Under the pieces are notes generated by a model that saw nothing but the letters and a program-made list of their open reading frames with translations, did no database searches and had not been told where the DNA came from. From assembly GCF_913055775.1 (NCBI RefSeq), contig NZ_CAJXJX010000001.1, positions 1 to 59,443 of the forward strand: 59,443 nt of DNA, read 5' to 3'. A program made the translations under genes and the position numbers. Below, in pieces: positions 17,930-50,385 of this stretch. The stretch comes from an uncultured Demequina sp. (GTDB lineage Bacteria; Actinomycetota; Actinomycetes; Actinomycetales; Demequinaceae). Every line of letters starts with the position of its first letter. The stretch's first letter is position 1.

Positions 17930-18073
17930 GGGAGAGGCGTAGGGGTCACTCGCGGCTGCTTCACGAATTCTTGAAACAGCGTGAGAGCCGTTGTGCAAGA
18001 GCAGGCACGGCGCTCTCCGGAGCGGCGCGCCCCTCGACCTCGCCCCCGTACTCTTGATACTTGAAGAAGGGCG

Positions 18074-18283: not shown

Positions 18284-18297
18284 CAGCACGTTCGACA

Positions 18298-18732: not shown

Positions 18733-18762
18733 GGCAGCCTCCCAAGCCACGGTCAAGATACA

Positions 18763-18784
18763 AGTATGCGCGCCTACACTGACA
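18763..18784 (-). promoter_or_regulatory. PafBC/RecA-NDp-like promoter of the excisionase-family gene
   Basis: Minus strand reads TGTCAG-TGTAGGCGCG-CATACT, 30 nt upstream of the GTG. Confidence 0.6.
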
Positions 18785-18814
18785 TATGCAACTGAGTGCC
18801 AGTTACAACTGACA

Positions 18815-23493: not shown

Positions 23494-24237
23494 TCAAAGA
23501 TCCGAGGAGACCTGGGAATACAGCGACCCGCGGGCTTCGCGCATTTGACGCTCGAGGCGCTCGGAGAAAGCCGAGTCATTGACCCTAACACCCAGCTCGA
23601 CGTTGGCGTTCTCGGCGCTCCAGGACATGTTTGCACTCGTGACCACTACGAACCGATGATCGACTGAGATGAACTTGGCGTGATTGCGCACGGCCCTGCC
23701 ATCGAAGGGCTTGGTCGCGTAGATCTTTCCAGGAGCAAGCGTCTCGGCGATCTGCCTCGCATTCGGCCCGTAGCCACTGCCGGCTGCTTCTGCGTCGACG
23801 TAGACAGTGACCAAGACTCCGTCGCGCGATGCGGCCGCCTGGAGTTCGTCCCACATCCCGGATGACTCCTGGAAATTGAACGTTGATGCCACGACGGAGT
23901 GCCGCGCGCTCCGAACGAGATCTACCAGCGAGCCTGTCAACGCACCTGACTGAGCCAGGTGCCCCGGCATGGTCCAGATCGCGTCCACCGAGGTCACCTG
24001 CGACTTGGCACCCTCGATCGCCCACAGAGCCGCGACAAGGACCTCCCGTCGAGCACGCAAGCCGTGCGTCACAGCCAGTGCAGATACCTCAGCCCGCTGC
24101 TCCGCTCCCAGGACACTCAGCGCTGACCCGAAACTCTCGTCCGCATCAAGTGACGACGCAACAAGGCGTGCCTCCGTCCCGCTCAGAGTCTCTCCGAGAC
24201 GGCGCATTGCGTCCCCGAGGTCAGGAGAAGAAGCCAT
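23494..24237 (-). CDS. drmC: DISARM phospholipase D-family nuclease DrmC
   Basis: Single HKD motif HAKFISVD...TSANMS...NVELG; last gene after drmB. Confidence 0.88.
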   Translation of the reverse strand: MASSPDLGDAMRRLGETLSGTEARLVASSLDADESFGSALSVLGAEQRAEVSALAVTHGLRARREVLVAALWAIEGAKSQVTSVDAIWTMPGHLAQSGALTGSLVDLVRSARHSVVASTFNFQESSGMWDELQAAASRDGVLVTVYVDAEAAGSGYGPNARQIAETLAPGKIYATKPFDGRAVRNHAKFISVDHRFVVVTSANMSWSAENANVELGVRVNDSAFSERLERQMREARGSLYSQVSSDL

Positions 24238-26233
24238 ACCCGCCGTACCCAGGTAGGTCCACTACGAGCCGGCGGTCAAGGAAGCGGTTGGCCCGCTCGC
24301 ACGAGGTCTCGGACGCCATTGCGCAGGTGTGACACGCCGCCCCGTGGAGAAAGTCCTCCGGGTCCTTGGGCACTCGCTGCGCACATACTGGGTCGGACGA
24401 GCAGCGGTGCGAACGCGTCAGCGCCCGATCCACGATCCGGTTGAGCGACGACCGCTCGCTGAGGCTCACCAGGCCGCCGAGCGTCCCGTCCGAGTCCGAT
24501 GCGGTCGTCACGATGAGCAGACCCGCAGCAGCAGGGCGTTCGTCAGTCGCTTTCCATGCGTACACACGCTCGGACAGGCTTGCCGCCGAATAACCCGAGT
24601 ACATCGCCATCTCACGAATCAGCAGATGGCCAAACGTGTGCGCCAGCCAGTACCGCGCGGGCATGAACCTCGAGTCCGCGTCGACATCCTTCGAGGTCTC
24701 CGAGAACCGAGCATCGAAGTTCCGCTGGTGGGACGCCCGGTGCGCCTCCCAGAGGTCAGTCGACTCGATCTTGGCTTCCCACTCCGCAACCCGCGCTTCG
24801 TCAAGTTGGAGGAAGATGCCTTCGCCACGGTCTTCGGTCGCCACTGCCCACTCTGCACGGGCACTCCGAGTCAGCGGCACCAGCCTCGAAGGCAGGTCGT
24901 TCGCGCGCTCCATCTCGTCGATGCGCGTGAATCCCACAAGAGCATTAACCTTGCGCAGACTGTCGACCGCAAGCCCCCGGGACACCCCGAGTTCACGCAG
25001 ATCGCGATGGAGGTCGCCCAACCCAGTAAGCGCCAGGCCAGTCTGCTCATCTACATGATGAGCACCAGCGGGATCCCGCTGCAGGTAGTTCCACTCCGGT
25101 ACCAGTAGGTCGATCGGATCGAATCGCGCAAGCTCCGCTTGACGCTCTTCCTCGCTCGGCGGTGGCGCCATCGACGCGGCAATAGCAGCAACAAGGTCGT
25201 CGTCCGACAGATCCACCAGGCGCGATTCGACATCGTCCAGCTCCTCGCGGATGCGGTCCACATCGGCGTGGTACTTCTCGAGCTTCTTCGGACCGATCGC
25301 GGCCCGCAGCTCGTCACCACGAGTCATGACGGTTTCGGTCTCGCTCTCGGGCATCACGATGACCGACTGGGTGGCGGGAAACCACAGGTTCGAGGCACCG
25401 AGCAACATCACACGCGCCTGGTTCACGCACCCGTTCTTGGAGAAAGCCGCCAAGTGCGGGTGCCGCCCACGACAGCGCGGCAGCTTGTCGCGGCCAGCGT
25501 CACCTTGAGCCTCGTTCATGGGACGCCGAAGCCCACAGGCCTTGCACTCGATGGTGGCGGACGCACCCTTGCCGACGGTGCGCTCGAGCATCGCAAGTGG
25601 ACGAATCTCCGCTCCGGATGAGCACGCCTGCCCCTGGTGCACCCACCAGTCGTAAGGAAACTCGTCGAGGTGACCGTCGGTGCACGCCAATAGGTAACGT
25701 GCAGCGACTACTTGCGAGGGGTTCTTGCGGATGCGGCCGTCCGGACCTGGGCACTTCCGGTGCTCAAAGCGTGCCTCGTCGGGGCGGAAGGGGTTCGTGT
25801 TGACGTAGTTGAACTGGCTGAGTGGCCCCAGCTTGTTGCACCCGGTGCACCTGAGCCATTGCGGGAAGATCCGCGCCGGAACACCAAGGTCCTCGCCCTC
25901 CTTGTCCGCGAAGGACCGGCTCGGTGCCCAGGGGAAGGGGCGCAATTGTGTGACACCTGGGAGGAAGTTCTTCACTACTGCTAGGAGGCGCGGCGCGTGA
26001 ATCGTCGGCACGCTCTCACGTCGGTCCCAGATGCGGTCCCAGTCGTCGAGCCCTGCGGGCATGGCTGTCAGTTGCGGCAGGTCCATCACAGCGCCGGGAC
26101 CGTAGGTGTACAGCAACGACGACGGTCGAGCCGCGCCAACCTTTGCGCGATTGCGCGACGTCTTCTGCGCACTCGTCGCGTCCTGGTCCCCAAGCGGATC
26201 GAGGACTGCCTCATTCGGCGATGTCTCAGTCAT
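24221..26233 (-). CDS. drmB: DISARM DUF1998 protein DrmB
   Basis: RPSSLLYTYGPGA start motif, GHLDEFP, GEGIF and C-terminal CSSDPVC...HGAACHTC...ETSCE. Confidence 0.92.
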   Translation of the reverse strand: MTETSPNEAVLDPLGDQDATSAQKTSRNRAKVGAARPSSLLYTYGPGAVMDLPQLTAMPAGLDDWDRIWDRRESVPTIHAPRLLAVVKNFLPGVTQLRPFPWAPSRSFADKEGEDLGVPARIFPQWLRCTGCNKLGPLSQFNYVNTNPFRPDEARFEHRKCPGPDGRIRKNPSQVVAARYLLACTDGHLDEFPYDWWVHQGQACSSGAEIRPLAMLERTVGKGASATIECKACGLRRPMNEAQGDAGRDKLPRCRGRHPHLAAFSKNGCVNQARVMLLGASNLWFPATQSVIVMPESETETVMTRGDELRAAIGPKKLEKYHADVDRIREELDDVESRLVDLSDDDLVAAIAASMAPPPSEEERQAELARFDPIDLLVPEWNYLQRDPAGAHHVDEQTGLALTGLGDLHRDLRELGVSRGLAVDSLRKVNALVGFTRIDEMERANDLPSRLVPLTRSARAEWAVATEDRGEGIFLQLDEARVAEWEAKIESTDLWEAHRASHQRNFDARFSETSKDVDADSRFMPARYWLAHTFGHLLIREMAMYSGYSAASLSERVYAWKATDERPAAAGLLIVTTASDSDGTLGGLVSLSERSSLNRIVDRALTRSHRCSSDPVCAQRVPKDPEDFLHGAACHTCAMASETSCERANRFLDRRLVVDLPGYGGYGFFS

Positions 26234-29200
26234 CGTCACTTCCCTGGGATGCCTGCCAAGCAGGAGCATGCGTCAACTCGAAGGCCATCAGCTTCTCCTT
26301 GAGCGGCGTCACGAGCACGTTGATCTCCGGCTGCACCTCACGCATGGAGTTGGCGACGATGAGCGGAGGCGTGTCGGGCGTGTCGGACAGCGCTCGCGAA
26401 CTTTCAGGCGACAAGAGCAAGGCAGCCTGCTTCGTCTCATCGGTCACCCGCTCATAGACCAGTTCCTTGCCGTGCGAGACCGCGAACGCCTTTCGCTTCT
26501 CCCACTGGCCAAGCCGGTTCAGCAGCCGCTCGGACACCTCTTTCGCCTCCGACTCCCCGCCGGCCACTTTGGCACGCGAGACGATCACTTCGATCATGCC
26601 CTTGAGCCGGTCTTTGGCCGTCGACACATTGCCCGCACCCTTCTCGGTGGACACCGTGTCCTCCGCCCGAGTGTCGAGGACGCGTGCGGCACCCACAAGG
26701 ACACCATCAAACAGGCGCTCGATCGCTGTCAACGAGTACGGCGTGACCGAGAGCGGCTCCACCTGCGAGTAGAACGTCTCGTGGTAGTGACGGAACTGCT
26801 CGAAGTGCGCCAAGTCGCGGGGCCGTGCCCAGTTCCCCAGAGTCACGACGAGTCCGGGCCGGCCCGCGTCTCGACCCACACGAGAGGACGCCTGAATGTA
26901 CTCGGCGGTGTTCTTGGGCTGGCCCACCACCATCATCAAACCCAAGCGAGTGACGTCGACACCCACCTGAAGCATCGACGTCGCGAGCACCGTGTCGAAC
27001 GGAACGACGTCTCGATACGAGATCGTCTCTCCTGCCCTGCGGTTCTCGGCACGGGCGCGACGTGCCGCTGTCGTGTCCCACTCGGCACCAAACTCCACCG
27101 CCATTTGATCCAAGGTGGCGGTGATGTCGGTAGACGATGCGCGGGACGTCAGCTCTGCGATGTGCAGCCCGTTCGGTTCAGTGCCAAAGCGCTGCGGGAA
27201 GTTCTTTCCCGCTCGCTTCTTCCGCACGGCAGTCTGCACGTCATCGCGCATGTAGCGGGCCATGCCCGCCAGTTCACGGGTGGCATTGAAGTAGGCGACG
27301 AGCGTCATGTAGGGGTCCGCGCTGAATGGCGTGCTCGCCGAAGCCCGGTCCCCCAGCAGCTGGCCCGCCGAGAGCAGGGTCCCGGCAACGACAATCTCGG
27401 CAGCAGTCAGACGTACCCCCGTGGTGCTCACGCCCACGTAGCGGCGGCCGGGTGTCTCACGTGAGACCGGGACTTCGGCAGAGAAGTAGGTGTCGGAAAC
27501 GTCGAGAACCTGCGGAGGGAAGATCGTCGGCTTGCGGCCATACAGGCCCCGGATCTGCGCAGCAGCGTTGCGAACCGTAGCCGTCGACGCCACGACAAGC
27601 GCCCGCACCGGCCGTCCCTCGCCGTCCCTCCAGCTGCACATCAGGTCGATCGCCGTCTCAAAGGCGCCGACAGCGGTTCCCAGTGCGCCCGTGATGAGGT
27701 GTAGCTCGTCCTGGATGACCAGGTCGGGCGGACGTAGCCGCTCCACGGGGGCCTTGCCCTCGGCTGGTCGGCCATCCTTGGCCGGGTGCTTGCCGCCAGG
27801 CGACAGGTCACAGCCCGAGGAGTCGGGGTGCACGCAACCGTGTCGCGCGCACTTCTCCGTCACGTACCCGAATAGGGAGGCCGCCTCCCCTTCGCGCGCC
27901 AACCGCGCGAACTTGTCAACGGTGGCGATCACGAAGGAGGGCGTGAGTCGATAGATCTCCTCGTCGACGGTGAGGACCGGCAGCCCCTCCCCCGCAGAGC
28001 CACCTTCGGAGAAGGGACAATCGCCGAACTCATCGCCGCAGTACACGCGGATGCGGCGCTCGACGTCGGAACCCTTGACGTTCTTGGCGTCAATCGGCGA
28101 CCCGCACCATGGACAGCGCTTGAGCTGCAGGACCGTCAGTCCGCGCTTGCTGCCTTCAGACGATGCTTTCGCGAGTTGCGCAGCCGCCTCGGGGTAGCGC
28201 TTGGGGGACACGGCAGTGCCCACCCACAGGCCGATGCGGAAGGGCTCGTCGCCCCAGAACTCCGGAGCCCTGAGTCGTGCAACCTCCGCGGCACATACCA
28301 GCGCCGTCGCTCGCTGGAACTGCTGCGCCGTGAGCAGGCGGAGCGTGTAGCGCATTAGCACCGCGATGCCGGCGCACCCGTCGAGCTTGCCGTCGGGAGA
28401 CTCGATCACACCCTGGCGCCGCCGGATCGCGAACGTGAATGCAGCGAGGCCCAGGTAGGCCTCGGTCTTGCCACCACCGGTCGGGAAGAACAGAAGCTCG
28501 GCTCGGGCGACGTCGCTTGACCTACGGTCCAAGTGAGGCTTGGCCAGCGCTTCGATTTGCATGAGCACGAAGGCAATCTGGAACGTGCGCCACGAGTGCG
28601 CCTTGGGGCCGTCTGCCTTGACCTGCTCGACGGCCTGCGCCAATGACAACCCGGGCTTCGCCTTTCGCTTCTCAGCGGCCTGGCTCTGAATACGTTGGTC
28701 AGCCATCACACGGTTCATGAATCCGAAGCACAGTTGCGTTTCCGCGTCCACAGTGAGGAAGTCCAGGCCTGCGCGAAGTTGCACCGCAACGGCAGTAGCA
28801 TCCTCAACGGCGTCGAGGGCGGTCTCGCGCAGGTGCTCCGGCAGCCCCTCGGCTTCCAACTGACGCTCGGCAATCCACGCGTCATAGCCGTCGACGATGG
28901 GGCGCAGCGCGTTCGCCAACGCTGTGCCGTCACCGGCGTCGGCGAGATCGGCGAGTGCGAGCATGTCCAGAGTGGCACCTTCAATCTCGCGAGCGCGAGT
29001 CTGAGGCGTCTCGGAGACGGGCAGCCACGTGGTCCGCACGTGCGTCGTACGACGCGATTCAGGATTCATCGGCGCCCAGTCCACCGAGCACGTGCGGCCC
29101 ACGGCGAACTCGAGCCTGTCACGATACTGAAGCTCGAGTCGCGCGAGTTCGTAGTCGGTCTCAGCACCACCGTCCGCGAGCGGATCGGTGACCGGCAGGA

Positions 29201-29948
29201 ACACGTCGTTGCCACCGGCGTCGATGTCGAGACGCGTCTGATAAAGCCACGCATCGACGGGGATGCGACGCGGGGTGTGCTTGTCGTTGCACAGGGCGAG
29301 TTCGACGATGCGCATGTCGCCTTGGTCCATCACGTCGACACGGAGCACCACTCGGTCCTCGAGCACGATGGTCTCCGTCTCGCCGGGCGTGAACGACTGC
29401 ACCGGGACGATGCTGTGGTGAAGATGGTCCTTTCGCGCGTAGCGGCGTACGGGGCGGCCAGAAGGCGTCTCCTCGTCTGAGCGCTGCGAGTGATAGGTCC
29501 CCCACGAGGAGTGAACCGTCACCGACTCCAGGTCGCGGGGCACCTGGAAACGTAGCCCCATCGAGGCGGGGATCATGAGGCCGCGCCGCAGGGGGGCGTC
29601 CTCGCCTCCGTCGTCATCATTGGCGACGGGATCGTTGCCGTCCGGCTCGACGGGCACGCCGCGGTCGAGATGCTCGGAGTCATCAACAACTTCGCTGTCA
29701 GTCTCGTCGTCACCGCCCGCTGCAGGAGTGGGCCCTTCGACGAGTTTCGCGGGTGCGATGCGACCGACCAGGTATAGCGCGTCGGGCTGGGCCTCGAGCA
29801 CCTCGTTCTCGCCATTGGCGGGACCGAGCAGCTCGCGCTCGAGGATGTCGGTGAGGTTCTCTCGGTCGGTCCACGAGGCCCCATCCGGCGCGTGTGCCAG
29901 CGCGTATTCGACGGGACGGTCAGGCTTCGTGGTGGGCGTGTCCGTCAC
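26226..29948 (-). CDS. drmA: DISARM helicase DrmA
   Basis: FFPTGGGKTEAY Walker A, MRYTLRLLT.QQFQRA, QDELH, ATSMLQVGVD, YIQASSRVGR. Confidence 0.92.
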   Translation of the reverse strand: MTDTPTTKPDRPVEYALAHAPDGASWTDRENLTDILERELLGPANGENEVLEAQPDALYLVGRIAPAKLVEGPTPAAGGDDETDSEVVDDSEHLDRGVPVEPDGNDPVANDDDGGEDAPLRRGLMIPASMGLRFQVPRDLESVTVHSSWGTYHSQRSDEETPSGRPVRRYARKDHLHHSIVPVQSFTPGETETIVLEDRVVLRVDVMDQGDMRIVELALCNDKHTPRRIPVDAWLYQTRLDIDAGGNDVFLPVTDPLADGGAETDYELARLELQYRDRLEFAVGRTCSVDWAPMNPESRRTTHVRTTWLPVSETPQTRAREIEGATLDMLALADLADAGDGTALANALRPIVDGYDAWIAERQLEAEGLPEHLRETALDAVEDATAVAVQLRAGLDFLTVDAETQLCFGFMNRVMADQRIQSQAAEKRKAKPGLSLAQAVEQVKADGPKAHSWRTFQIAFVLMQIEALAKPHLDRRSSDVARAELLFFPTGGGKTEAYLGLAAFTFAIRRRQGVIESPDGKLDGCAGIAVLMRYTLRLLTAQQFQRATALVCAAEVARLRAPEFWGDEPFRIGLWVGTAVSPKRYPEAAAQLAKASSEGSKRGLTVLQLKRCPWCGSPIDAKNVKGSDVERRIRVYCGDEFGDCPFSEGGSAGEGLPVLTVDEEIYRLTPSFVIATVDKFARLAREGEAASLFGYVTEKCARHGCVHPDSSGCDLSPGGKHPAKDGRPAEGKAPVERLRPPDLVIQDELHLITGALGTAVGAFETAIDLMCSWRDGEGRPVRALVVASTATVRNAAAQIRGLYGRKPTIFPPQVLDVSDTYFSAEVPVSRETPGRRYVGVSTTGVRLTAAEIVVAGTLLSAGQLLGDRASASTPFSADPYMTLVAYFNATRELAGMARYMRDDVQTAVRKKRAGKNFPQRFGTEPNGLHIAELTSRASSTDITATLDQMAVEFGAEWDTTAARRARAENRRAGETISYRDVVPFDTVLATSMLQVGVDVTRLGLMMVVGQPKNTAEYIQASSRVGRDAGRPGLVVTLGNWARPRDLAHFEQFRHYHETFYSQVEPLSVTPYSLTAIERLFDGVLVGAARVLDTRAEDTVSTEKGAGNVSTAKDRLKGMIEVIVSRAKVAGGESEAKEVSERLLNRLGQWEKRKAFAVSHGKELVYERVTDETKQAALLLSPESSRALSDTPDTPPLIVANSMREVQPEINVLVTPLKEKLMAFELTHAPAWQASQGSDDD

Positions 29949-37000: not shown

Positions 37001-37158
37001 GCGAGGGACTGGAGCGACACCACGTGGTTGAGGCGCGGCCGACCGTCGTCTGCAGGGCTGCGTGGCAACGCCTGTTCTCGCACGTCGGAGACGGCCCAGA
37101 CCTCTCCGCGGACGTCAACGATCTGGCCGGGCTCTGGCGTGGTAGGTACGGCAGTCAA
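34006..37158 (-). CDS. drmD: DISARM SNF2-like helicase DrmD
   Basis: YQLEP, LLADDVGLGKT, DEAHH, LSATPHNG, EGIDLQ and RLEQRIGRIDR motifs; TTG start with AGGGAAG RBS and a TAGTCT -10 candidate at 37211-37216. Confidence 0.92.
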   Translation of the reverse strand: MTAVPTTPEPGQIVDVRGEVWAVSDVREQALPRSPADDGRPRLNHVVSLQSLAEDRLGEELDVVWELEVGHSIAPDQGLPEVISEDGFDDPNMLAAYVDAVRWGAVTTANPSAFQAPFRSGANVEAYQLEPLRRALQAPRANLLLADDVGLGKTIEAGLVIQELLLRHRARSVAVVCPPSLATKWQEEMRDKFGLDFVIVNSELMAEVRRTHGLGANPLKLFPRVIISMAWLPGLRAQRLVRDVLSDVGIENSARRYAFDILVVDEAHHAAPSSPSRVGQARGYAVDSQRTRAVRALAKQCEHRLFLSATPHNGHTESFTALLEMVDDRRFSRGALVDEKALAEVTVRRLKRDIAEKNFRKREVKTITFSPSDDEAEAFETLDSILTESARANDTKRGGDIVSMLLKKRFLSSPYAFASTLSLYAQAATGSSEWEPEDDYYLEVLGSSQSDEEEGAVEHPEFDALRKSKGNNPLVAATPEQIATLSAWGLSYEHKPDSRLSALIEWLDAICRPAQPHWSNERVVIFTEYASTLEWIVSNLRQRGYDESRLGVIQGSTDAEERADVRARFTANPAQDPIRVLVATDSAGEGIDLQNHCHRLVNFDVPFNPSRLEQRIGRIDRYGQTETPQIFQFLPESTAATYAADMDFMRRVAEKVSTIAGDLGSVNPVIDSDIQGHFGSIAIATEKAGADKNTQAVNRAMAGSAQLNRELTQLARTFDSQKERMHLTASNGRRVVDTALAVTAQPALREVGSDLTDAEVFELPPLARGWQNATSGLATRLQPDTLRPITFADDIAEDDPDETIVRVHLGHALMRKASRTLRASLFSADAAMNRVTAVVVDDLEESCVAAASRLVLVGRGGLRLHEEVFLAGVRLRGQALAEAKVEALLERTLDDPDLTLADADLRSHVSQLWTAEGGRLRTRLENAMHRRADARRESVSSDLEKREAADIARAEQIYGAFRLNLQESVATMRRSLEEEREALFSMNPDQLRQYRKDIESIERRLNELADEEAREIAELRARYVDVQPYVSAAAVVFALTPADAAAGRVS

Positions 37159-37262
37159 GGATCTTCCCTATCGCGAGGCAGCACGCGGGCGTGCAGTTGG
37201 AGCTTCTCGGAGACTATCGGGCGCGTCGATCCGCTGGCGAAGCCGTGTGACGCGCGTCGCAC

Positions 37263-39062
37263 TCAGGCACCTTCGCTGTGCGCTTCGGCCTCGATCATGA
37301 CGCTGTCTGGCGGCACCATGCCTCGGGTTACCATCCACTCCATCAGACGCTGAACGCCGTCGACCTTCTTCTTCGCATCCTGCGTGAGCTTCTTGCCCTG
37401 CCCGGAAGAGTCGTTGAGCTCCTCGAAGGCAAGCAGCTCGTCGGTCGCTTCGATGAGTGCATTGCCGGCAGCTACCCACTCAAAGCCCGGTGCCGTGTCG
37501 ACTCCAATGCGTTCGGCGACGAGGCGTGCCGCGAGGAGGTCTCGGAGTCCCGCGAGAACCGCCTCCGACGATTGAGCGCCGAGCGTTCTCCCGAGCGTGA
37601 CCGCGGCGCCACTCCCTACGCCGGCGACGCCACCAACCACCATCAGGCCGCCTGCGATGCCTCCCGGCCCCAAGGCCGACAGCCCTGCAAGAAAGGCTGC
37701 TCCTCCGGCAAGACCTGCAGGTGCAGCCGCGACGGCAAGAAACGGTGCTGCCACCACCGCCACACCTGCCAGAACAACTGCCGTTGCCAGCGTCGCGACG
37801 CGCTTGACTGCCCGTCCCTGTTCCTCCCCAACTGTCTTGACCTCGTCGACCGCACTCTCGACGATGTCGACGTAATTCTCGAGAATGCCAAAATCCATCG
37901 CTACTTGGCGACGCACTCCGGGCGCGACTTTGGAGTAGTCCACGCTGAATGGCAGTAAGGGATCCACTCGATAAAGGTGGACCAAGAACATCGGGATCTG
38001 TTCCGGAGCAACCCTGCCGTGCAGCCAAGGCTTCATGTCTCGGTCGAGGTCATTGAAGATCGGCCGCGACCCAGAATCCTCTGCGGCCTTCAGCGCCTGC
38101 GAGGCCAACCACTCGCGTATACCACGGACACGTTCCCGCTTGTCTTTAGCGCCTCGCTGAGGCGAAGTCTGCAGAGCCATCTCAATGCGGTAGGAGTGCT
38201 GCATCGTGACAGCGGTCAGGAGGTCGCTGCCCGACCACTCGTCCCGATCGGGACCTTCCCTAGACGGCACGACCCCGCGCTCTCGGACACCATAGAGGGC
38301 GTTGCCGATCTCCCTGCAAATCTGCGGCTGCTGCAGCGCATGCGCAACGCCGTGGTCCCTGAATCGCCCATTGAGCGCAAGATTGACAGCCTCCGGGATC
38401 GGGCCGCCAATCCCGCCCGCGTTCGGCACGAAGTCCAACGAGTTGTACACGTTGACCCACGCTTCCACCGCCGCAAGGTTCGCGTGCTTGTACGACTTCT
38501 CTGCGAACTTTCTGAAGGTTTGGCGCCCGAGCGGCGAGCCGAGAGTCAGGAGCAGCTTGATATTCATGCGCTCCGGAAGTTGACCGAGCAATTCCAACGC
38601 GACCGCGGTCCCAAGAGAGTGCGCGATAACGACCCAGTCACCTTCAGCGTTTCCGAGGCCGTGGAGTACACGCCTGATGATAGTTGGATGGCTGTCGGCG
38701 GCGAGGAACGCACGTACCTGGGCAAACATCGGGAAGGCCGCCACGCTCACCTTCTCCAGCGTCGCATCGTCCAGCGGCCCTCGGCCGGGAGCAAACCTCG
38801 CACCTGCGATGCGATGCGCCACCACGCTTTGCCGCGCAGCGAAGTCAGATCTGGCTACACGATCAGTGGCCTCGAGCGGCAATGTCCCTTCATCGCCGGC
38901 GCCGGTCGAGAGCAGATCGTCGTAGTGCGGTTCCACGGCATCCGTCAACTCAACGGGCGAACGCTGGCAGTCCGCCAGCGCCTCATTCAATGGCGTGCGC
39001 CAGTCCACTACCTCAGCACTATTGATTCCGTGCAGGAAAAGCACCCTCACTTGCTCTGCCAT
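37263..39062 (-). CDS. Uncharacterised alpha/beta-hydrolase (lipase-like) with a C-terminal Gly/Ala-rich hydrophobic hairpin
   Basis: FLHGI oxyanion motif, AHSLG nucleophile, candidate Asp (LDFVP) and His (DHG); long hydrophobic stretch AVVLAGVAVVAAPFL...GLSALGPGGIAGGLMVVGG. Confidence 0.75.
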   Translation of the reverse strand: MAEQVRVLFLHGINSAEVVDWRTPLNEALADCQRSPVELTDAVEPHYDDLLSTGAGDEGTLPLEATDRVARSDFAARQSVVAHRIAGARFAPGRGPLDDATLEKVSVAAFPMFAQVRAFLAADSHPTIIRRVLHGLGNAEGDWVVIAHSLGTAVALELLGQLPERMNIKLLLTLGSPLGRQTFRKFAEKSYKHANLAAVEAWVNVYNSLDFVPNAGGIGGPIPEAVNLALNGRFRDHGVAHALQQPQICREIGNALYGVRERGVVPSREGPDRDEWSGSDLLTAVTMQHSYRIEMALQTSPQRGAKDKRERVRGIREWLASQALKAAEDSGSRPIFNDLDRDMKPWLHGRVAPEQIPMFLVHLYRVDPLLPFSVDYSKVAPGVRRQVAMDFGILENYVDIVESAVDEVKTVGEEQGRAVKRVATLATAVVLAGVAVVAAPFLAVAAAPAGLAGGAAFLAGLSALGPGGIAGGLMVVGGVAGVGSGAAVTLGRTLGAQSSEAVLAGLRDLLAARLVAERIGVDTAPGFEWVAAGNALIEATDELLAFEELNDSSGQGKKLTQDAKKKVDGVQRLMEWMVTRGMVPPDSVMIEAEAHSEGA

Positions 39063-39067
39063 GGAGG

Positions 39068-42000
39068 CTAGCCTACAGATGGCGGCATTCGCCGGGAGCG
39101 CACGACGTCGAACCGCAGGGCGCGCGTCTTCGGCGCTGACAGGTCAACTCGCATCCACTCCGCCGACTCGCCGACCGCCCTTAGGAGATCGTCCTGCCGG
39201 GGTTGGCCAAGCAACTGACGGTAAGTGACGACCGTCCGAAGCAAGCGGTTGTAGTGCTGGAGCTCTCGACTCAGCGGCTGGGCAGGCACATAGCGCTCGA
39301 TAGCGGCGCCGTCGGAGCTCGGGTAGACCCAGAACGGCACGACCTCGGACTCGGCATCGGCCCGGCGTGCCACCGCGGACGAGAACGCGGCCTCCCAGGG
39401 GTCGTGGTAGCGGGCATTGAGAGCCGCCGCCCGATGATCATGCGCCACGTTCTTCCGCACTGCGTGACCCTTGTATCGATGGACCCGCCCCTCGCGCTGC
39501 TCAAGATCGACCGGGTTGCCGGGCAAGTTCCAGTGGACAATCGCGTGGCTATAAGTGTGAAAGTCCAAACCCTCCTGGCCCACGGACGTCGACGCAAGCA
39601 CAAACGGCCTGAATGGCGAGTTATAGGCGACGCGCACGGCACCTTCGCGCACCACTGCCTTGTCATCGGACTGCGCGCGGCCATAGCGCGCGGCGAAGTG
39701 ACTGCCGACGCGATGTGGCGTGAGCTCGATGCGCCCCGATTCGACCGAGACGTCTTCGACCACGTTGGTCGCGGTGCGTGTCGAGAGCGCCTCGCCGATC
39801 ACGGCAGATAGCCGGTCGGCGCGCGCGCCCGGAGCGGCATCCTGGAGCCCCTCCGACTCGAGCAGGACGTGGACATACTCATCGAGCACTGCCTGCAAGC
39901 CGCCGTCGATGCCGTGGTGCAAGACGCCGCGCCAGTACGCCTCGCCGTCGTGCGACCGCAGCAGCGCGATGATCTCCGGCTTGTTGAACATCGACCGCAG
40001 GCCCAGTGCGATCTCCACTGCGCCGCCTCGAAGTGCAGCGTCGCCGAGTGCATCAGCGCCGCCTGCAATGCGCGAGAGTGCGCGCAAGCCGACGACTCCA
40101 GGACCTGCGATAGCGACGTCAGTGAGCACCCCGGCGAGGTCGTGCGGAACGGCGCCCAGGCCGAGCGCGACCGCGCCGGACGGCTCTTCGACAGAGTCCA
40201 GACGTGCCAGAAGTTCGAGGTGCTCTCTCAGCCGGCTGGTGCCATCGCCCTCGTCGATCGCTCGCGCCCGGATCAAGCGCGAGAGCTCACGCGCGCTCAC
40301 GCCCTCGACGTGCCGGTCGAGCATCGCCGCCACAACCCAGTACCACCGCGAGTCCGTCGCGCCCCCGACGTCCGGAAGCGGCGGCAAGCGACCGAGCAGA
40401 GTCTCGATCCGCTCTCGAACAATCCCGATCATGTGTTCGCGATCCATCGGCATCGCGCCAACCTCTCGTGCGATGGCGAGCGGATCGGCGACGCGTGCAA
40501 GCGCGGTCGACGGGTAGAGCAGAGTCATGGTCGTGCCCGCAGGCCGGTACTGGAGCGGCGCGGTGGTGGCGCGCTGCTCGTCGTACGTCCGCCCGGCGAG
40601 CCCGGCGTGCTCGAGCGTCAGCCGCTCGGCCTCGTAGCTCGTCATCACTGCGATGGCCTTGGGAACCACAGCCCATGCCGAGAAGATCAGCCGCTTGGTG
40701 AAGCGACGCAGCTGCTCGTCCGCGTAGTCAGCTCCGAGCTCGTAGTAGGGCATCGACGGCGGGAGCCATGCGAGCTTCCATGCTCCGCGGTCGAGCACGT
40801 CGGCGAACAGCCCTCGGAGCTTGGCATTGCCTGGGTCGATTCGCGCGTACGACGCGATGTCGACTCGGCTGAGCATCCCGGACGCTTTCTCGAGGAGTCG
40901 TGCCAGCGACGGGTCACCGGTCTCGACAGCCGCCTCGAAGCGCTTGCGGATCTGGTAGGTCCCCCGCTCCATCAGGTTCAGCGGGTACGGACTTGAACGC
41001 CAGTACTCGAAGACATCGTGGCGGTCGAGATGCCTGGCAGCTGCGTCGAAGGTCACCCATGACCGTAGGTCCGCGCGATCGATCACCGCTCCGGGCATCG
41101 GCGCCTCGCGCAGCATCCCGTCACGGTCGGGTGTCGAGGCCAACCTCTCCATGCGGCTCATCACACGCCGCAGCGTCTGCTCGACGCGATCGCGGGCGCA
41201 GAGCGCCTCAGCGGTCGGCCCACCAGCCACTGCCGCTTCCCTCATCACGCGCAGATCGTCGCGGACACCCCGTGCCGCGTCCTCACCCGCGAGGAAGCCG
41301 ACGGTGCGTTGGAAGTCGTCGTAGTGGTCATCGCCACTCGGCTCGTCGGGAAGTGTGTACATCTTGAATGGAGTCGCGGACAAGAGCAGCACACGCGCCT
41401 TCTCGTGATCGAACACCTCTCGCGCGAGGTCCGATCCGTAGCCTTCGCCGTCGAGCACGTCCTTGAACCGCTGGAACTCATCGAGGATCACGAGGTCGGG
41501 CTCGAGGTGCTCGACCGCAGCGCGGGCGACCACGTGGCGTAGCCGGCCAACAAGGAGGTTGCGTTCGTTGCGGAGGGTCGAATTGGGTTGGCCGCGGGTC
41601 TTGCGAAACCTATCGACGCACGCCTCGAGTTCGTCAACGAGAGGTCGGCCCCGCGGCCCGATCGCGTGCTCAACGGCTCGACCGAAAGAGGAGACCAACT
41701 CATGGTCGAGGGTGCCGCGATCGAAGTCTCGGAGGTATTTCAGGAAGTTCTCCTCTCCCACTCGCCCCTGAAAGAAACGCCTCCAGGGGCGAGTCGCAAG
41801 CTTGCGCCTTCCCCAGTGCGCAGCAAGCATCCAGTAGAGAAGGACCCGCTCTGGGTACGCGCCGTCAGACGCGCCGTCGCTGAACGAGGTGCCAGGCGTG
41901 AACGAGATGAAGTTGACCTTCTCTGCGCGCAGGTCTTGCAGCGCCTTGGGTAGGAGCGTGAGCCGGTCAGCGTGCCGCAGCTCGGCGCCTCCGACGACAT

Positions 42001-42280
42001 TGAGACGGCTGAGGTTCTGTCGCGCGATCTGGGTGTTCGAGCAGATGTAGACGATGTCGATGCGGTCTTCCTTGTCCCACAAGTACTCGACAGCCTTGGC
42101 GATGACGCCCTTCGCAATCATGGTCTTGCCGAGCCCGACCTCGTCGGCCACGAGGAACCGCTTGGTCCAGTCCTCATCCGCCCATAGCCGCTGGAACGCG
42201 TAGTCGACCGTGCGACGCTGGAAGTCCTTGAGGCTGCCGAGAATTCTCTCGGTGTCTGGACGCTCTCGGGACGCACTCAT
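39068..42280 (-). CDS. SF2 helicase (third gene of the DUF6361-PLD-helicase module)
   Basis: LKDFQ, FLVADEVGLGKT, LDEFQRF, LSATP, GQEGLDFH and EQREGRVHRY motifs; ATG overlaps the PLD stop. Confidence 0.88.
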   Translation of the reverse strand: MSASRERPDTERILGSLKDFQRRTVDYAFQRLWADEDWTKRFLVADEVGLGKTMIAKGVIAKAVEYLWDKEDRIDIVYICSNTQIARQNLSRLNVVGGAELRHADRLTLLPKALQDLRAEKVNFISFTPGTSFSDGASDGAYPERVLLYWMLAAHWGRRKLATRPWRRFFQGRVGEENFLKYLRDFDRGTLDHELVSSFGRAVEHAIGPRGRPLVDELEACVDRFRKTRGQPNSTLRNERNLLVGRLRHVVARAAVEHLEPDLVILDEFQRFKDVLDGEGYGSDLAREVFDHEKARVLLLSATPFKMYTLPDEPSGDDHYDDFQRTVGFLAGEDAARGVRDDLRVMREAAVAGGPTAEALCARDRVEQTLRRVMSRMERLASTPDRDGMLREAPMPGAVIDRADLRSWVTFDAAARHLDRHDVFEYWRSSPYPLNLMERGTYQIRKRFEAAVETGDPSLARLLEKASGMLSRVDIASYARIDPGNAKLRGLFADVLDRGAWKLAWLPPSMPYYELGADYADEQLRRFTKRLIFSAWAVVPKAIAVMTSYEAERLTLEHAGLAGRTYDEQRATTAPLQYRPAGTTMTLLYPSTALARVADPLAIAREVGAMPMDREHMIGIVRERIETLLGRLPPLPDVGGATDSRWYWVVAAMLDRHVEGVSARELSRLIRARAIDEGDGTSRLREHLELLARLDSVEEPSGAVALGLGAVPHDLAGVLTDVAIAGPGVVGLRALSRIAGGADALGDAALRGGAVEIALGLRSMFNKPEIIALLRSHDGEAYWRGVLHHGIDGGLQAVLDEYVHVLLESEGLQDAAPGARADRLSAVIGEALSTRTATNVVEDVSVESGRIELTPHRVGSHFAARYGRAQSDDKAVVREGAVRVAYNSPFRPFVLASTSVGQEGLDFHTYSHAIVHWNLPGNPVDLEQREGRVHRYKGHAVRKNVAHDHRAAALNARYHDPWEAAFSSAVARRADAESEVVPFWVYPSSDGAAIERYVPAQPLSRELQHYNRLLRTVVTYRQLLGQPRQDDLLRAVGESAEWMRVDLSAPKTRALRFDVVRSRRMPPSVG

Positions 42281-44103
42281 GAGCGCTTCTCCGTGTGGAC
42301 GGACCACACGACGTTCCAGAGGTCCTCGAATCCCTCTGGCATCAGTTCGGCACCGCCGCGCGCCTGCCTGAGCTCGTCCATCGCCCCGGCGATGCGCGCA
42401 AGCGCCGCGTCGTCGCGCCCGACCGCGTGCACGAGCGGTTCGAACAGCGCCACGTCTTCGTTGGTACCGCGGTACCCGCCTTCCCAGGCCACCGCATCGG
42501 CGCCAGCAAGCTCCGCGAGCAGCGCGTCGTACGCGGGGTCACCGAGCAAGAAGATCAGGTATCGCAGCACGTCACGCTGAGACTTGAGCACCGAAGCGAA
42601 AGCGTTCTTGCGACGGTCGCCGACGTCGCCGGTGAGCTCCGCCTTCACCACGCACCGACGGCTCACCTTCGCGTCGCCAATGCCCGCCGTCGTCTCCAGG
42701 GCGACGAACGGCGTGACGTTATCCGTCGCCAGGGTCCAATCCATCACCTCAGCGAGCTCGCGAGCATGGCCGTCACGTGCGATGGAGATCGGCCATGCGA
42801 CGGTGCTGCCCGGCGGCTCGGGCGGCACCACCAGCGCGACAGCCACCTGCGCGCGATCGTCGTCGATCGTCGCGACGTGAGCAGAGACGCCTGCCTCCGC
42901 GATGGCGCGATGGAATGCCTCGATCTCATACGTGGTCGCGATCTGGGCGTCGTCGATCCCGTCCGCTTCGGCAGCCGATGCGGGCTCGAGCATACGTATG
43001 AGACCCGGCGCCTCTTCGGTCCCATCGAGTACTTGCTTGACGCCACATTCGCGCGTCGCGCCGCGCAGTACGACGTCGAACTCGACGTTCCCTCCCCAAC
43101 GCGCGCTCGTGAGGTTGGCACTGCCAGTGACGACCTCGGACGTGCCTCCGTCGAGATCCACGATGAAGGTCTTGGCATGAAGTCCTTCGTTGGCGCCGCC
43201 GAACTCGAAGCCGACGGCTTCGGCCTCGCCAACCTCCGCGCCGGCCTCTACCTCTGCCAAGCGCTGCAGGACGTTCGTGTCCCAGCCGGCGAGCGCATCG
43301 GCGCCAAGAAGGTCGAGCGACTCTTGCCGGGTGATCAGCGTCCGCGAGCTCGCAAGAGTGCCGAGCGAGCGAACCCCAGCGCGCGACAGGAACGGGCTGA
43401 TTGCGAGGACTCGTCGAGCACGGTCCGGGAAGGGCCACACTTCGGCGCCGTCAATGCCGATCGGCAGCAGCTCGCCCGAGGTGAAAGGCGCCGGCACGAC
43501 GAGCCGAGTCTCCCGGAGCGTGCTCGCGAGGCTGGCGATCTGCTGAGCGCGGTCCGTCGCAAGCGGGCGCAAGCCGAGACCGGGCAGGGCCTCAACGAAA
43601 CCGGCCATCGGCGCGGCGTCGATGGTCCCGCCCGGGGCCTCGTCGAGCACGAGCGCCGTATCCCACGACCGATCGAAGGTGATGTTCCGGCTCAGCACGA
43701 CGACCCGGTGAAGGAACGAGGACCGTGACTCGTCCGCGAATCGAAGCACCCAGACCTTGGGATGGAAGATCGCGCCGTCTCGTGGCGCCACCACCTCGCG
43801 GACGCTTTCCTCCACGAACAGCAAGATGCTGCGGTAGTTCGGCGGGACATGGATGCCGCCCGCCTGGCAGAACACTGTGGTCCGGTCCGCGTAGCGGCGT
43901 ACAGCCTCCAGCAATCGCACAGGGTCCGCTGCGTCCAGGTCCGAGCCGGCGATACGGTCCTCAAGCGCAAACGAGAGCGGCGCCAGAAGCATTGCGGTGA
44001 GGTCCATCGAGTACGTGGTGCCGACCGCGACGTCCACGCCCATGCCAGCGGGCGGGCGCAGCGCATCTGTGAGGAGCACGCGCGTCTCAGGGGTGAGTGT
44101 CAT
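42277..44103 (-). CDS. Phospholipase D-family nuclease-like protein with two HxK motifs
   Basis: FHPKVWVL...SRNIT and LHAKTFIVD...GSANLT...NVE; ATG 44103 overlaps the upstream stop. Confidence 0.85.
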   Translation of the reverse strand: MTLTPETRVLLTDALRPPAGMGVDVAVGTTYSMDLTAMLLAPLSFALEDRIAGSDLDAADPVRLLEAVRRYADRTTVFCQAGGIHVPPNYRSILLFVEESVREVVAPRDGAIFHPKVWVLRFADESRSSFLHRVVVLSRNITFDRSWDTALVLDEAPGGTIDAAPMAGFVEALPGLGLRPLATDRAQQIASLASTLRETRLVVPAPFTSGELLPIGIDGAEVWPFPDRARRVLAISPFLSRAGVRSLGTLASSRTLITRQESLDLLGADALAGWDTNVLQRLAEVEAGAEVGEAEAVGFEFGGANEGLHAKTFIVDLDGGTSEVVTGSANLTSARWGGNVEFDVVLRGATRECGVKQVLDGTEEAPGLIRMLEPASAAEADGIDDAQIATTYEIEAFHRAIAEAGVSAHVATIDDDRAQVAVALVVPPEPPGSTVAWPISIARDGHARELAEVMDWTLATDNVTPFVALETTAGIGDAKVSRRCVVKAELTGDVGDRRKNAFASVLKSQRDVLRYLIFLLGDPAYDALLAELAGADAVAWEGGYRGTNEDVALFEPLVHAVGRDDAALARIAGAMDELRQARGGAELMPEGFEDLWNVVWSVHTEKRS

Positions 44104-45302
44104 GCGGCGCCCCTCGCCTGGTAGAGGTCGCGCAGATGCGCTGAAGTGTTGGCCCAGCGGAAGTCGAGATGACCAAGGCCGCTCGATCCTGACCAGCGAT
44201 CGAGCGCCGACTGGTTCACGAACCGGGCACGGCTGCCCTTGATCTGGCGCTCGCGGGTCTCGGCGAGCCGCGCCGCGTCGCTGCTCGTCAGGAGATCGCC
44301 TCGGGAGCTCGCGATGTCCACCCAAGAATCCACGAAGGCCCGCGTCGTGTGGCGAAGCTGAGGGTTGTGAGTTCCGATGAGACGCCACCATGCAGCCCGG
44401 TCCCACGTCGCGGCGAGCTCGCGTGCGCCGGAGTCCTGCCACTCGGCGAGCGAATGCTCGTGGCCGACGAGCACATCCTCTCGTGCGCCTTTGCGCGCCA
44501 GCGCCACGTTGTAGACGAGTGCGGCGCCGTGAACAAGGACGCTGAAGCGCTGGGCGTGGTCGACGAGGTCGCGCAGATCCTGTGGGAGCTGATCCGTATT
44601 GCCAATTTCCCACGGGTAGCCCGCGGAATCCGGACCGTCCATGTTGGGCGGTGGGTTGCGCGTAAGCCACGCGAGAAGCGTTCCGCGTGTTCGCGAGGAG
44701 ATCCGGTACGAGAGGTACTCCTCCTCGCGGGCAGTCAGTTCGAAGGTCACCTGGCCCAGAAGTCCATCGGGTGGCGGAGGAAGCTCGGCGTCGATGCCGT
44801 CGCCGGGCAGCGTCATGTGCGAGTCGATGTCGTCGGCGTCGGCGGTCCTATCCCTCAGGGACCTGAAGTCCGACAGGCGACGGTAGTAGGCGTTCGGGGA
44901 AGATGCGTCCACCAAGCCCCAGTTGCCGAGCGCCGACCAGTAGACGTCACTAGGTAGCCTCTTGAGTGAACGCCGCGCGACGTTGCCCATGACGCCTTCG
45001 GTCTCACCACCCGCGAGCAGGCTGTCGATGAGGCGGTACTGCAGGTGCCGGAACTCCGCAGACATCTCCGCAGGCGTGTGCTTGCGCGACGCGGCTTGCA
45101 TGAGCCACGGCAGGAACAGGACATACCGAAGTCGTGTGTGCAGGGTGGACGTGCCGGGGAACATGGCATTCGCGAGGGTGTCGCGGATCGCGCCGATGCC
45201 CAGCTCGTCAATGGTCCCCTGCTCCCGGAAGAGGTCGACGACCTCCAGCATGCGGCGGCGCTGCTCGTCGTCATTGTCGAGCCATCCGAATGCCGAAGCC
45301 AT
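44100..45302 (-). CDS. DUF6361 family protein
   Basis: MASAFGWLD, DELGIGAIRD...FPGTSTLHTRLRY and PS.VYW..L..WG motifs. Confidence 0.8.
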   Translation of the reverse strand: MASAFGWLDNDDEQRRRMLEVVDLFREQGTIDELGIGAIRDTLANAMFPGTSTLHTRLRYVLFLPWLMQAASRKHTPAEMSAEFRHLQYRLIDSLLAGGETEGVMGNVARRSLKRLPSDVYWSALGNWGLVDASSPNAYYRRLSDFRSLRDRTADADDIDSHMTLPGDGIDAELPPPPDGLLGQVTFELTAREEEYLSYRISSRTRGTLLAWLTRNPPPNMDGPDSAGYPWEIGNTDQLPQDLRDLVDHAQRFSVLVHGAALVYNVALARKGAREDVLVGHEHSLAEWQDSGARELAATWDRAAWWRLIGTHNPQLRHTTRAFVDSWVDIASSRGDLLTSSDAARLAETRERQIKGSRARFVNQSALDRWSGSSGLGHLDFRWANTSAHLRDLYQARGAA

Positions 45303-45308: not shown

Positions 45309-45384
45309 ATCCTGGCGCAATGGTGCGACATTTCCAACAGGTCGACGTGCCACGGTTGGCAATGTCACAGGGCTCTGCCAGGCT
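45309..45384. promoter_or_regulatory. Back-to-back PafBC/RecA-NDp-like promoters for the defence operon (-) and DUF429 (+)
   Basis: Minus: TGTCGC-ACCATTGCGC-CAGGAT-N6-ATG (45330..45309). Plus: TGTCAC-AGGGCTCTGC-CAGGCT-N6-ATG (45363..45384). The two arms form a 13/15 inverted repeat (45324-45338 / 45355-45369). Confidence 0.7.
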
Positions 45385-50109: not shown

Positions 50110-50385
50110 ATGGCATTGAACATCAAGAACGAGGCGACCGTCGCTCTCGTGCGCGAGCTGGCCGAGAAGACCGGCCAGTCCCAGACGAGCGCCATCGAGT
50201 CCGCGGTGCGCGAGGCGCTGCAGCGGGTCGCCGACGACGACCACGCGAGCCGCGCGCAGGAGCGCTACGACCGGGCGATGGCGATTGTCAAGGAGATCGA
50301 TGCATCGCTGACGGACGAGGATCGCGAGAGGCTCCGCACCGCACAGGACGACATGTACGACGAGGACGGTCTGCCCGTATGGTGA
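50110..50385 (+). CDS. vapB: VapB-family antitoxin (Rv0623-like)
   Basis: MALNIKNE...ELA..TGQSQT.AI and C-terminal YDEDGLP; overlaps vapC. Confidence 0.9.
   Translation: MALNIKNEATVALVRELAEKTGQSQTSAIESAVREALQRVADDDHASRAQERYDRAMAIVKEIDASLTDEDRERLRTAQDDMYDEDGLPVW

What the first reader, a model, noticed from the sequence alone, without database searches (positions are those of the whole stretch)
23494..45302. Nine-gene co-directional defence array joining a DUF6361-PLD-helicase module to class I DISARM
Seen: DUF6361, PLD and helicase overlap by ATGA; 5 nt gap to the hydrolase; 104 nt gap to drmD; then drmD-MI-A-B-C all overlap. In total three SF2 helicases, two PLD nucleases and one methyltransferase over about 22 kb. 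Known: DISARM I is drmD/MI/A/B/C. The three-gene module matches my recollection of Azaca (zacABC), which is not confirmed here. Inference: a layered system pairing methylation-based self/non-self defence with an MTase-free helicase-nuclease that might handle modified phage DNA.
Basis: partly seen in the sequence, partly recalled or inferred. Interest (0 to 1): 0.75.

Follow-up and report, generated by a model that had tools for sequence, protein, structure and literature searches.

The report
Azaca, DISARM and orphan lipase island
Two already described anti-virus systems (Azaca and class I DISARM) sit end to end in a bacterial defence island and likely act as separate layers rather than one nine-gene machine; the one new piece is the uncharacterised lipase-fold gene between them, a candidate stand-alone defence gene.

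Summary
The nine genes and their junctions are as described. Three are Azaca (PADLOC ZacA/B/C) and five are class I DISARM, all with catalytic motifs present. The claimed joint system is not supported. In 401 genomes of the order, 23 carry zacC and 38 carry drmA; 4 carry both (2.2 expected, P=0.16). Outside this lineage only one adjacency exists, in divergent orientation and on other branches of both trees. Congeners carry other defence cargo beside the same hydrogenase operon. zacA, the hydrolase and drmD each have a predicted promoter conserved in the congener G455.

That gene matches no Pfam, NCBIfam or PADLOC family. It belongs to a family of at least 137 full-length sequences with a near-invariant Ser-Asp-His triad, an alpha/beta-hydrolase fold and a Gly/Ala-rich hydrophobic segment. 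Its relatives lie near strong PADLOC hits in 12 of 22 loci against 3 of 19 random windows (9 of 20 against 1 of 19 curated), with changing partners. It is likely a stand-alone, membrane-acting defence gene, untested.

Verdict: an ordinary defence island with one good candidate new gene.

The parts
44100..45302 (-). zacA (DUF6361), 400 aa
   Evidence: Pfam DUF6361 E 5e-64; PADLOC ZacA E 4.6e-125; start backed by a leaderless promoter conserved in G455
45309..45337 (-). predicted leaderless promoter of zacABC: TTGGAA, 17 nt, CAGGAT, 6 nt, ATG
   Evidence: both hexamers and both spacings identical in G455 while the spacer letters differ; similar -10 hexamers 6 nt before zacA in G420, G419, G423; prediction only
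42277..44103 (-). zacB, PLD-family nuclease with two HxK motifs (HPK 114, HAKTFIVD 309), 608 aa
   Evidence: PADLOC ZacB E 2.3e-165; motifs; first motif in 15 of 15 and second in 14 of 15 other Azaca loci tested by pattern
39068..42280 (-). zacC, SF2 helicase/ATPase, 1070 aa
   Evidence: PADLOC ZacC 1105.7 bits; Walker A GLGKT, DEFQ, SAT and motif VI present
39070..39075 (-). predicted -10 hexamer (TAGGCT) 7 nt before the hydrolase start, inside the last zacC codons; no Shine-Dalgarno
   Evidence: same hexamer and spacing in G455 although the sequence upstream differs; TAGCCT 6 nt before the start in G409, which has no zacC; TAnnnT background 0.1% per position in the island; prediction only
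37263..39062 (-). uncharacterised 599-aa protein: N-terminal alpha/beta-hydrolase (S149-D210-H237), C-terminal helical domain with a Gly/Ala-rich hydrophobic segment (about 421-490); candidate stand-alone defence gene
   Evidence: no Pfam/PADLOC/NCBIfam hit; family; triad S 136/137, D 136/137, H 137/137; model pLDDT 83; fold Z 12.4; dN/dS 0.18; neighbourhood test
37211..37216 (-). predicted -10 hexamer (TAGTCT) in the 104-nt gap, 52 nt before drmD
   Evidence: G455 has TAGGAT in the same register with diverged sequence upstream; chance of TAnnnT in a random 104-nt genome stretch is 5%; prediction only
34006..37158 (-). drmD, SNF2-like helicase, 1050 aa
   Evidence: NCBIfam NF038317 1212.6 bits, cut-off 610
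29945..34009 (-). drmMI, N6-adenine methyltransferase with variable target-recognition region, 1354 aa
   Evidence: PADLOC DrmMI 1575.6 bits; DIACGSG and NPPF motifs; residues 901-1200 only 46-61% identical to G455 against 87-98% for 1-900
26226..29948 (-). drmA helicase, 1240 aa
   Evidence: NCBIfam NF038325 1311.3 bits, cut-off 950
24221..26233 (-). drmB (DUF1998/MZB), 670 aa
   Evidence: NCBIfam NF038324 654.3 bits, cut-off 240
23494..24237 (-). drmC, PLD nuclease (HAKFISVD), 247 aa
   Evidence: NCBIfam NF038319 158.6 bits, cut-off 133; motif
20347..23454 (+). UG5 reverse transcriptase-nitrilase, convergent with drmC; same island, separate system
   Evidence: PADLOC RT_UG5-nitrilase E 7.9e-231; YVDD and ICHE motifs
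45391..46083 (+). DUF429 gene, divergent from zacA; recurrent neighbour at this hotspot
   Evidence: Pfam DUF429 E 1e-49; near Azaca in G455, G420, G423 and near DISARM in G415

Best explanation
This is a defence island in which two known systems, Azaca and class I DISARM, lie end to end with an unrelated lipase-fold gene between them, and the three likely work as separately transcribed, independent layers rather than as one nine-gene machine. Shown here: gene identities, catalytic motifs, purifying selection, and lack of conserved linkage. Inferred from homologues: DrmMI marks host DNA with m6A at a non-palindromic motif, and DrmAB is switched on by incoming unmethylated DNA with a 5' overhang. 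ZacABC would form one complex whose ATPase-dependent PLD nuclease cuts phage DNA, possibly preferring hypermodified DNA as the Bacillus system does with T4. Inferred from anatomy and neighbourhood only: the 599-aa protein is likely a serine lipase/esterase held at the membrane by its Gly/Ala-rich hydrophobic segment, which would damage the host membrane on infection (abortive infection). I put that defence role at about 55%.
For: Identity. No excess co-occurrence: zacC in 23 of 401 and drmA in 38 of 401 genomes, both in 4, expected 2.2, P=0.16; without the own genome 3 against 2.0, P=0.33. Complete DISARM beside Azaca in 2 of 24 other Azaca loci with fetched flanks: G455, a congener with the same array, and G785, divergent and without the hydrolase. 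G785 groups away from G000/G455 in the ZacC and DrmA trees, and starred branches force two origins in each. The site is a hotspot beside a hydrogenase operon: G420 holds DarG + type I RM + Azaca there; G415 and G429 hold a C5 methylase + DISARM and lack zacC. Island GC3 is 0.71-0.82 against 0.85-0.92 in four flanking genes. Three promoter-like elements are conserved in G455. Published Azaca needs only ZacABC and DISARM works without Azaca. The hydrolase family has changing defence neighbours.
Against: All nine genes are co-directional with small gaps. The terminator scan found no candidate in either gap, so read-through into one long transcript is possible. The array has been kept whole in two species with dS 0.44-1.28. 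Two independent Azaca-DISARM adjacencies among about 24 loci could reflect weak selection for pairing. The promoters are consensus predictions. Genomes are related, so the P values are rough. The ZacC tree is the quick IQ-TREE search and the DrmA tree is FastTree; the one-clade test did not finish.
Confidence: 0.8

Rival explanations
1. One reading: Azaca and DISARM are a selected, co-regulated pair. DISARM stops unmethylated phage DNA and Azaca destroys modified DNA that escapes, with synergy that keeps them linked.
For: Co-directional packing. Two independent adjacencies, G000/G455 and G785. BmAzaca prefers hypermodified T4 DNA. Methyltransferase motifs lie within the flanks of 10 of 24 Azaca loci against 1 of 19 shorter random windows. 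Synergy between co-localised systems is documented for Druantia III/ARMADA II (PMC13463889, passages).
Against: No excess genome co-occurrence. 34 of 38 drmA genomes lack zacC and 19 of 23 zacC genomes lack drmA. The methyltransferases near Azaca are of several kinds (type I RM, type IIG, C5), as expected of any island gene. One search used unequal window sizes (906 kb against 285 kb) and a crude pattern that missed the type IIG enzyme of G423.
Confidence: 0.12
2. The hydrolase is an accessory subunit of DISARM (or a fourth Azaca gene) and not a system of its own.
For: It lies 5 nt from zacC and 104 nt from drmD. Of 6 genomes with a full-length copy in the 401-genome sample, 4 have drmA within about 30 kb on the same contig: G000, G455, G539 (18 kb) and G409 (27 kb).
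Against: 33 of 38 drmA genomes and 21 of 23 zacC genomes have no profile match to the family. None of the 12 scanned genome-contig loci has a DISARM or Azaca operon among the scanned neighbours (one SNF2 helicase in L111 scores on a DrmD model but best on DpdE). Partners vary: McrBC, type I RM, Zorya, BREX, Gabija, TerY-P, PDC-S14, PDC-S37. It has its own predicted promoter.
Confidence: 0.08
3. The hydrolase is mobile but non-defensive cargo, for example a membrane lipid-remodelling or nutrient lipase that inserts in the same variable sites. This rival concerns only the middle gene.
For: 10 of 22 loci have no PADLOC hit at E<=1e-50 nearby. Several sit among housekeeping genes: cysS (L101), smc-ftsY (L138), glycerate kinase (L124). 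One lies in a conjugative element (L077). The ESM Atlas gives a weak likeness to DUF726 (0.77, lead only). With the strict test count and the raw control the enrichment is not significant (9 of 20 against 3 of 19, P=0.08).
Against: Raw 12 of 22 against 3 of 19 (P=0.02) and curated 9 of 20 against 1 of 19 (P=0.008). In several loci it is the immediate, co-directional neighbour of a defence gene (L105, L111, L112, L113, L102). Patchy spread: 7 of 401 genomes.
Confidence: 0.35

Closest known systems
Azaca (ZacA DUF6361, ZacB PLD, ZacC SF2 helicase). Naming by Millman et al. 2022 is recalled; biochemistry from bioRxiv 10.1101/2025.07.10.664194 (abstract, introduction, one results section and passages read)
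   Same: All three genes, order, overlaps and catalytic motifs; near full-length PADLOC matches.
   Different: Nothing in the genes. Substrate preference of this actinobacterial copy is untested; T4 preference was shown for Bacillus and Klebsiella systems in E. coli.
Class I DISARM (drmD-drmMI-drmA-drmB-drmC); bioRxiv 10.1101/2021.12.28.474362 (passages) and PMC9142583 (abstract)
   Same: Five genes in the canonical order; DrmD, DrmA, DrmB and DrmC above NCBIfam cut-offs, DrmMI by PADLOC.
   Different: No drmMII cytosine methylase here, unlike the Serratia system and probably G415/G429. The target motif is unknown and likely differs from G455, whose recognition region has diverged.
Protease-activated alpha/beta-hydrolase death effector (Evans et al., PMC12642450, abstract and passages)
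   Same: An alpha/beta-hydrolase of Actinobacteria used in anti-phage defence, nearest to lipases, substrate unknown.
   Different: That effector is about 33 kDa and is paired with a protease. This protein is 599 aa with an extra helical and hydrophobic domain, and no protease gene adjoins it in the window.
Multi-system defence islands with tested synergy, e.g. [quoted passage not shown]
   Same: Several complete systems packed at one variable chromosomal site.
   Different: That trio recurs in 426 strains; the tandem array here was found in two congeners only.
UG5-large RT-nitrilase DRT11 (PMC13436386, abstract)
   Same: The convergent 1035-aa gene is an RT-nitrilase fusion of the UG5 class with no transmembrane partner gene identified beside it.
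   Different: Not compared by sequence with DRT11; outside the finding.

Membership tests
Azaca | ZacA with DUF6361 | tested here: met
   Pfam E 5e-64, PADLOC E 4.6e-125 over 393 of 396 positions
Azaca | ZacB PLD nuclease with HxK motifs | tested here: met
   PADLOC E 2.3e-165; HPK 114 and HAKTFIVD 309
Azaca | ZacC SF2 helicase with Walker A/B | tested here: met
   PADLOC 1105.7 bits; GLGKT, DEFQ
Azaca | three-gene operon in order A-B-C | tested here: met
   ATGA overlaps
Azaca | ZacABC complex cuts phage DNA, preferring modified DNA | not testable with these tools
   shown only for BmAzaca
DISARM class I | core drmA, drmB (DUF1998), drmC (PLD) | tested here: met
   NCBIfam scores above cut-offs
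DISARM class I | drmD and N6-adenine methylase drmMI precede the core | tested here: met
   definition
DISARM class I | m6A methylation of a host motif and phage protection | not testable with these tools
   needs methylome sequencing and plaque assays
   4 of 401 genomes hold both, 2.2 expected; tandem array only in G000 and G455
   two origins forced by starred branches in both trees; quick methods, one-clade test unfinished
   three predicted promoters but no terminator candidate in the gaps
alpha/beta-hydrolase superfamily (middle gene) | fold and Ser-Asp-His triad with a nucleophile elbow | tested here: met
   Z 12.4, rmsd 3.5, 175 aligned to 1uxo; AHSLG, D210, H237 near-invariant
Protease-activated alpha/beta-hydrolase module | adjacent caspase-like or other protease gene | tested here: not met
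   window neighbours are zacC and drmD; no such protease family among the neighbours scanned with Pfam (not all neighbours were scanned)
DUF726 | match to PF05277 | tested here: not met
   0 of 22 members at E<=0.01; Atlas feature score 0.77 only
Catalogued defence genes (PADLOC-DB 2.0.0) | match to any of 5027 models | tested here: not met
   no hit for the window protein at E<=0.001 or for 12 relatives at E<=1e-20; later catalogues were not available
Known pore-forming or membrane domain (C-terminal half) | structural match of residues 270-599 | tested here: inconclusive
   only generic helical-bundle matches, best Z 8.8; Foldseek best E 0.34; the hydrophobic segment has pLDDT under 50

The most novel reading that the evidence does not exclude
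The 599-aa middle gene is the first-noted member of an undescribed single-gene anti-phage system of Actinomycetota: a serine lipase fused to an unclassified helical domain with a glycine-rich membrane segment, which plugs into many different defence islands under its own promoter and kills infected cells by attacking their membrane.
Probability: 0.5. Interest if true: 0.62.

Novelty: new member of a known kind. Interest (0 to 1): 0.38.

Why it matters
As a whole the region is a normal defence island, useful mainly as a ready natural test of whether a modification-targeting system (Azaca) and a methylation-based system (DISARM) add up or synergise. The lasting lead is the middle gene. It defines a sizeable unnamed actinobacterial family with an intact active site and island-type neighbours, and one gene plus one catalytic mutant would test it. 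If it protects, it adds a lipase-type effector to the small set of defence systems known from Actinomycetota.

Tried and rejected
Conserved nine-gene operon: rejected by the genome survey and trees.

Mobile-element boundaries: the repeat search of 19-48 kb showed only short chance-like repeats among those listed; no tRNA and no Rfam match; no integrase among the scanned window proteins.

The sigma-70 consensus scan was at chance level and missed the promoters later seen by comparison. The leaderless -10 pattern is not family-wide: at the likely start it appears only in the three genes from the own genus (G000, G455, G409); most other loci have a Shine-Dalgarno-like sequence, and one (L106) could not be parsed.

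Hydrolase searches that led nowhere: no PDB sequence match; no phage match; plasmids gave two partial matches with the window protein and none with P0023; viral contigs gave three partial matches; no second copy in the own genome. The C-terminal domain has no clear fold match.

Loci dropped before the neighbourhood count: L103 and L110 (contigs of about 4 kb), L114 and L115 (45-residue matches), L126 (N-terminal domain only), and 11 of 16 metagenome loci (short or partial). One of 20 drawn control windows overlapped a test locus and was left out. L138 counts as a raw positive but is chromosomal smc. Control hits L143 (dGTPase) and L161 (cysteine desulfurase-like) were judged housekeeping.

Literature: searches and term look-ups in five papers found no description of this hydrolase family. 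Searches listed no paper on an Azaca-DISARM pairing. Most subscription papers are not searched. bioRxiv supplements are closed, and the predicted-family tables of 10.1101/2025.01.08.631966 may already list this family. No complex prediction was run, as no binding is claimed.
Full report
Observation. PADLOC assigns the first three to ZacA, ZacB and ZacC over nearly their full length. NCBIfam places DrmD, DrmA, DrmB and DrmC above curated cut-offs, and DrmMI scores 1575.6 bits on the PADLOC model. Walker A/B, SAT and motif VI of ZacC and DrmD, Walker A/B of DrmA, the HxK motifs of ZacB and DrmC, and the two methyltransferase motifs are present. The 599-aa fourth gene matches nothing in Pfam, PADLOC or NCBIfam. 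The island also holds a convergent UG5 RT-nitrilase and a divergent DUF429 gene. Its genes have GC3 0.71-0.82 against 0.85-0.92 in four flanking genes. The nearest named homologue of the middle gene is from Demequina (86% identity), so the host is likely that genus.

Is the pairing conserved? The same draw of 401 genomes of the order was searched for ZacC (23 genomes), DrmA (38) and the hydrolase family (7, one of them partial). Four genomes hold both zacC and drmA against 2.2 expected (P=0.16; without the own genome 3 against 2.0, P=0.33). In G419 the two are on different contigs. Flanks of 11-40 kb were fetched for 24 other Azaca loci, and complete DISARM adjoins Azaca in two of them. G455, of the same genus, has the same array. 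G785, of another family, has DISARM and Azaca pointing away from each other, two small genes apart, with no hydrolase. In both the ZacC tree (25 rows, quick IQ-TREE) and the DrmA tree (20 rows, FastTree) G785 falls away from G000/G455 and well-supported branches force two origins; the formal one-clade test did not finish. The tandem array is therefore one lineage's arrangement.

History of the locus. Against G455 all nine genes are under purifying selection (dN/dS 0.03-0.18). Most have dS of 0.44-0.80, near the 0.55-0.61 of the flanking hydrogenase genes, which fits inheritance from a common ancestor. zacC (1.28), DUF429 (1.49) and the RT (1.88) are more diverged, which suggests allele replacement. 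The DrmMI recognition region has diverged far more than the rest of the protein. The site beside the hydrogenase operon is a hotspot. G420 carries DarG, a type I RM system and Azaca there; G415 and G429 carry a cytosine methylase and DISARM without Azaca.

Control of expression. Comparison with G455 shows three promoter-like elements kept while neighbouring letters changed. These are a -35/-10 pair 6 nt before the zacA start, a TAGGCT hexamer 7 nt before the hydrolase start with no ribosome-binding site, and a TAGnnT hexamer in the gap before drmD. The G409 hydrolase, in a genome without zacC, has the same leaderless pattern. These are predictions. No terminator candidate lies in the gaps, so read-through is not excluded.

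The middle gene. A profile search of 1.84 billion representatives gave 343 proteins at E<=1e-30. I aligned 137 full-length sequences. S149, D210 and H237 are kept in 136, 136 and 137 of 137; 99% have a strongly hydrophobic 19-residue stretch, and the 425-490 segment is about half Gly/Ala with a median of no charged residues. The model (pLDDT 83) has an N-terminal alpha/beta-hydrolase domain (Z 12.4; nearest Foldseek rows are small lipases, none significant). The helical C-terminal half has only generic matches.

Neighbourhood test. Neighbours within about 7.5 kb of 22 family loci, including the window, were scanned (short or distant ORFs were left out of some scans). Twelve have a PADLOC hit at E<=1e-50, against 3 of 19 random 15-kb windows (P=0.02). 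After dropping the window, merging two congeners and removing housekeeping look-alikes on both sides, the count is 9 of 20 against 1 of 19 (P=0.008); with the strict test count and the raw control it is P=0.08. Partners differ at almost every locus: McrBC (five loci), type I RM, Zorya, BREX, Gabija, TerY-P, PDC-S14, PDC-S37. This is the usual signature of a stand-alone defence gene. Against it, about half the loci have no known defence neighbour. In favour of a DISARM tie, drmA lies 18 kb and 27 kb away in G539 and G409, but 33 of 38 drmA genomes lack the family.

How it most likely works. For DISARM, published work shows m6A marking by DrmMI and stronger action on unmethylated DNA, with drmC dispensable (bioRxiv 10.1101/2021.12.28.474362, passages). 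DrmAB is auto-inhibited until it binds DNA with a 5' overhang (PMC9142583, abstract). For Azaca, all three proteins and the ZacC Walker A motif are needed to cut DNA, with a preference for hypermodified T4 DNA (bioRxiv 10.1101/2025.07.10.664194). Carrying these over to this locus is inference from strong homology. For the hydrolase, membrane-directed lipase activity causing abortive infection is my inference from the fold, the triad, the hydrophobic segment and the neighbourhood; the trigger is unknown. The nearest precedent is the smaller protease-activated alpha/beta-hydrolase effector (PMC12642450), which this protein is not.

Novelty and verdict. Azaca and DISARM are known, and dense multi-system islands are known (PMC13463889). 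The unnamed hydrolase family was not found described in the searches listed under Tried and rejected, though newer catalogues and closed supplements may hold it. It is the part worth an experiment. Earlier notes of this scan reached the same view of Azaca-like cassettes beside DISARM in other genomes; they are unchecked leads and are not counted as support.

Noticed in passing
window 20347-23454 (+): Intact UG5 RT-nitrilase, convergent with drmC, with no transmembrane partner identified; resembles in layout the minimal DRT11 of PMC13436386 (abstract). The G455 copy is 66% identical and has a frame break near its start (L024), either real or an assembly error.
   Followed up: partly
window 29945-31300 (drmMI residues about 901-1200): The target-recognition region is 46-61% identical to G455 against 87-98% for residues 1-900, which suggests a specificity swap.
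   Followed up: partly
window 45391-46083 (+): DUF429 gene recurs near Azaca or DISARM in four other genomes of the genus (G455, G420, G423, G415); no PADLOC model. A possible defence-associated nuclease.
   Followed up: partly
window about 12366-20002 (-): NiFe-hydrogenase operon (Fer4_22, NAD-binding, small and large subunits, maturation protease, DUF6390) anchors the defence hotspot in G000, G415, G420 and G429; in G455 about 13 kb of other genes intervene.
   Followed up: partly
window 50936-51982 (-): 5'-nucleotidase matching the PADLOC candidate PDC-S08 (E 1.7e-130); also found in G419 and G415 near defence loci.
   Followed up: no
window 50110-50777 (+): VapBC-type pair (Rv0623-like antitoxin and PIN domain).
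   Followed up: no
window 7535-9253 (-): DUF222-HNH repeat-element gene with at least one more copy in the genome (contig C16).
   Followed up: no
window 18298-18720 (-): Excisionase-like HTH_17 gene inside the hydrogenase operon region, just downstream of the Fer4_22 gene.
   Followed up: no
L060/L080 (G785): Independent Azaca and class I DISARM adjacency in divergent orientation, with two small genes without Pfam match between them.
   Followed up: yes
L077 (G409) 4561-13939: A hydrolase relative lies among conjugation genes (coupling protein, AAA_10 ATPase), so the family can travel on integrative conjugative elements.
   Followed up: partly
L137 6449-9951: A hydrolase relative is divergent from a Tdp1-like PLD gene and a 509-aa unknown gene with no PADLOC hit at 1e-20; counted as negative here but possibly an uncatalogued defence pair.
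   Followed up: no
P0036, P0127: Two relatives carry N-terminal extensions of about 190-300 residues with no Pfam match; possible sensor fusions.
   Followed up: partly
L109: The record is titled Sporosarcina but the stretch is 64% GC; possible contamination or recent transfer.
   Followed up: no
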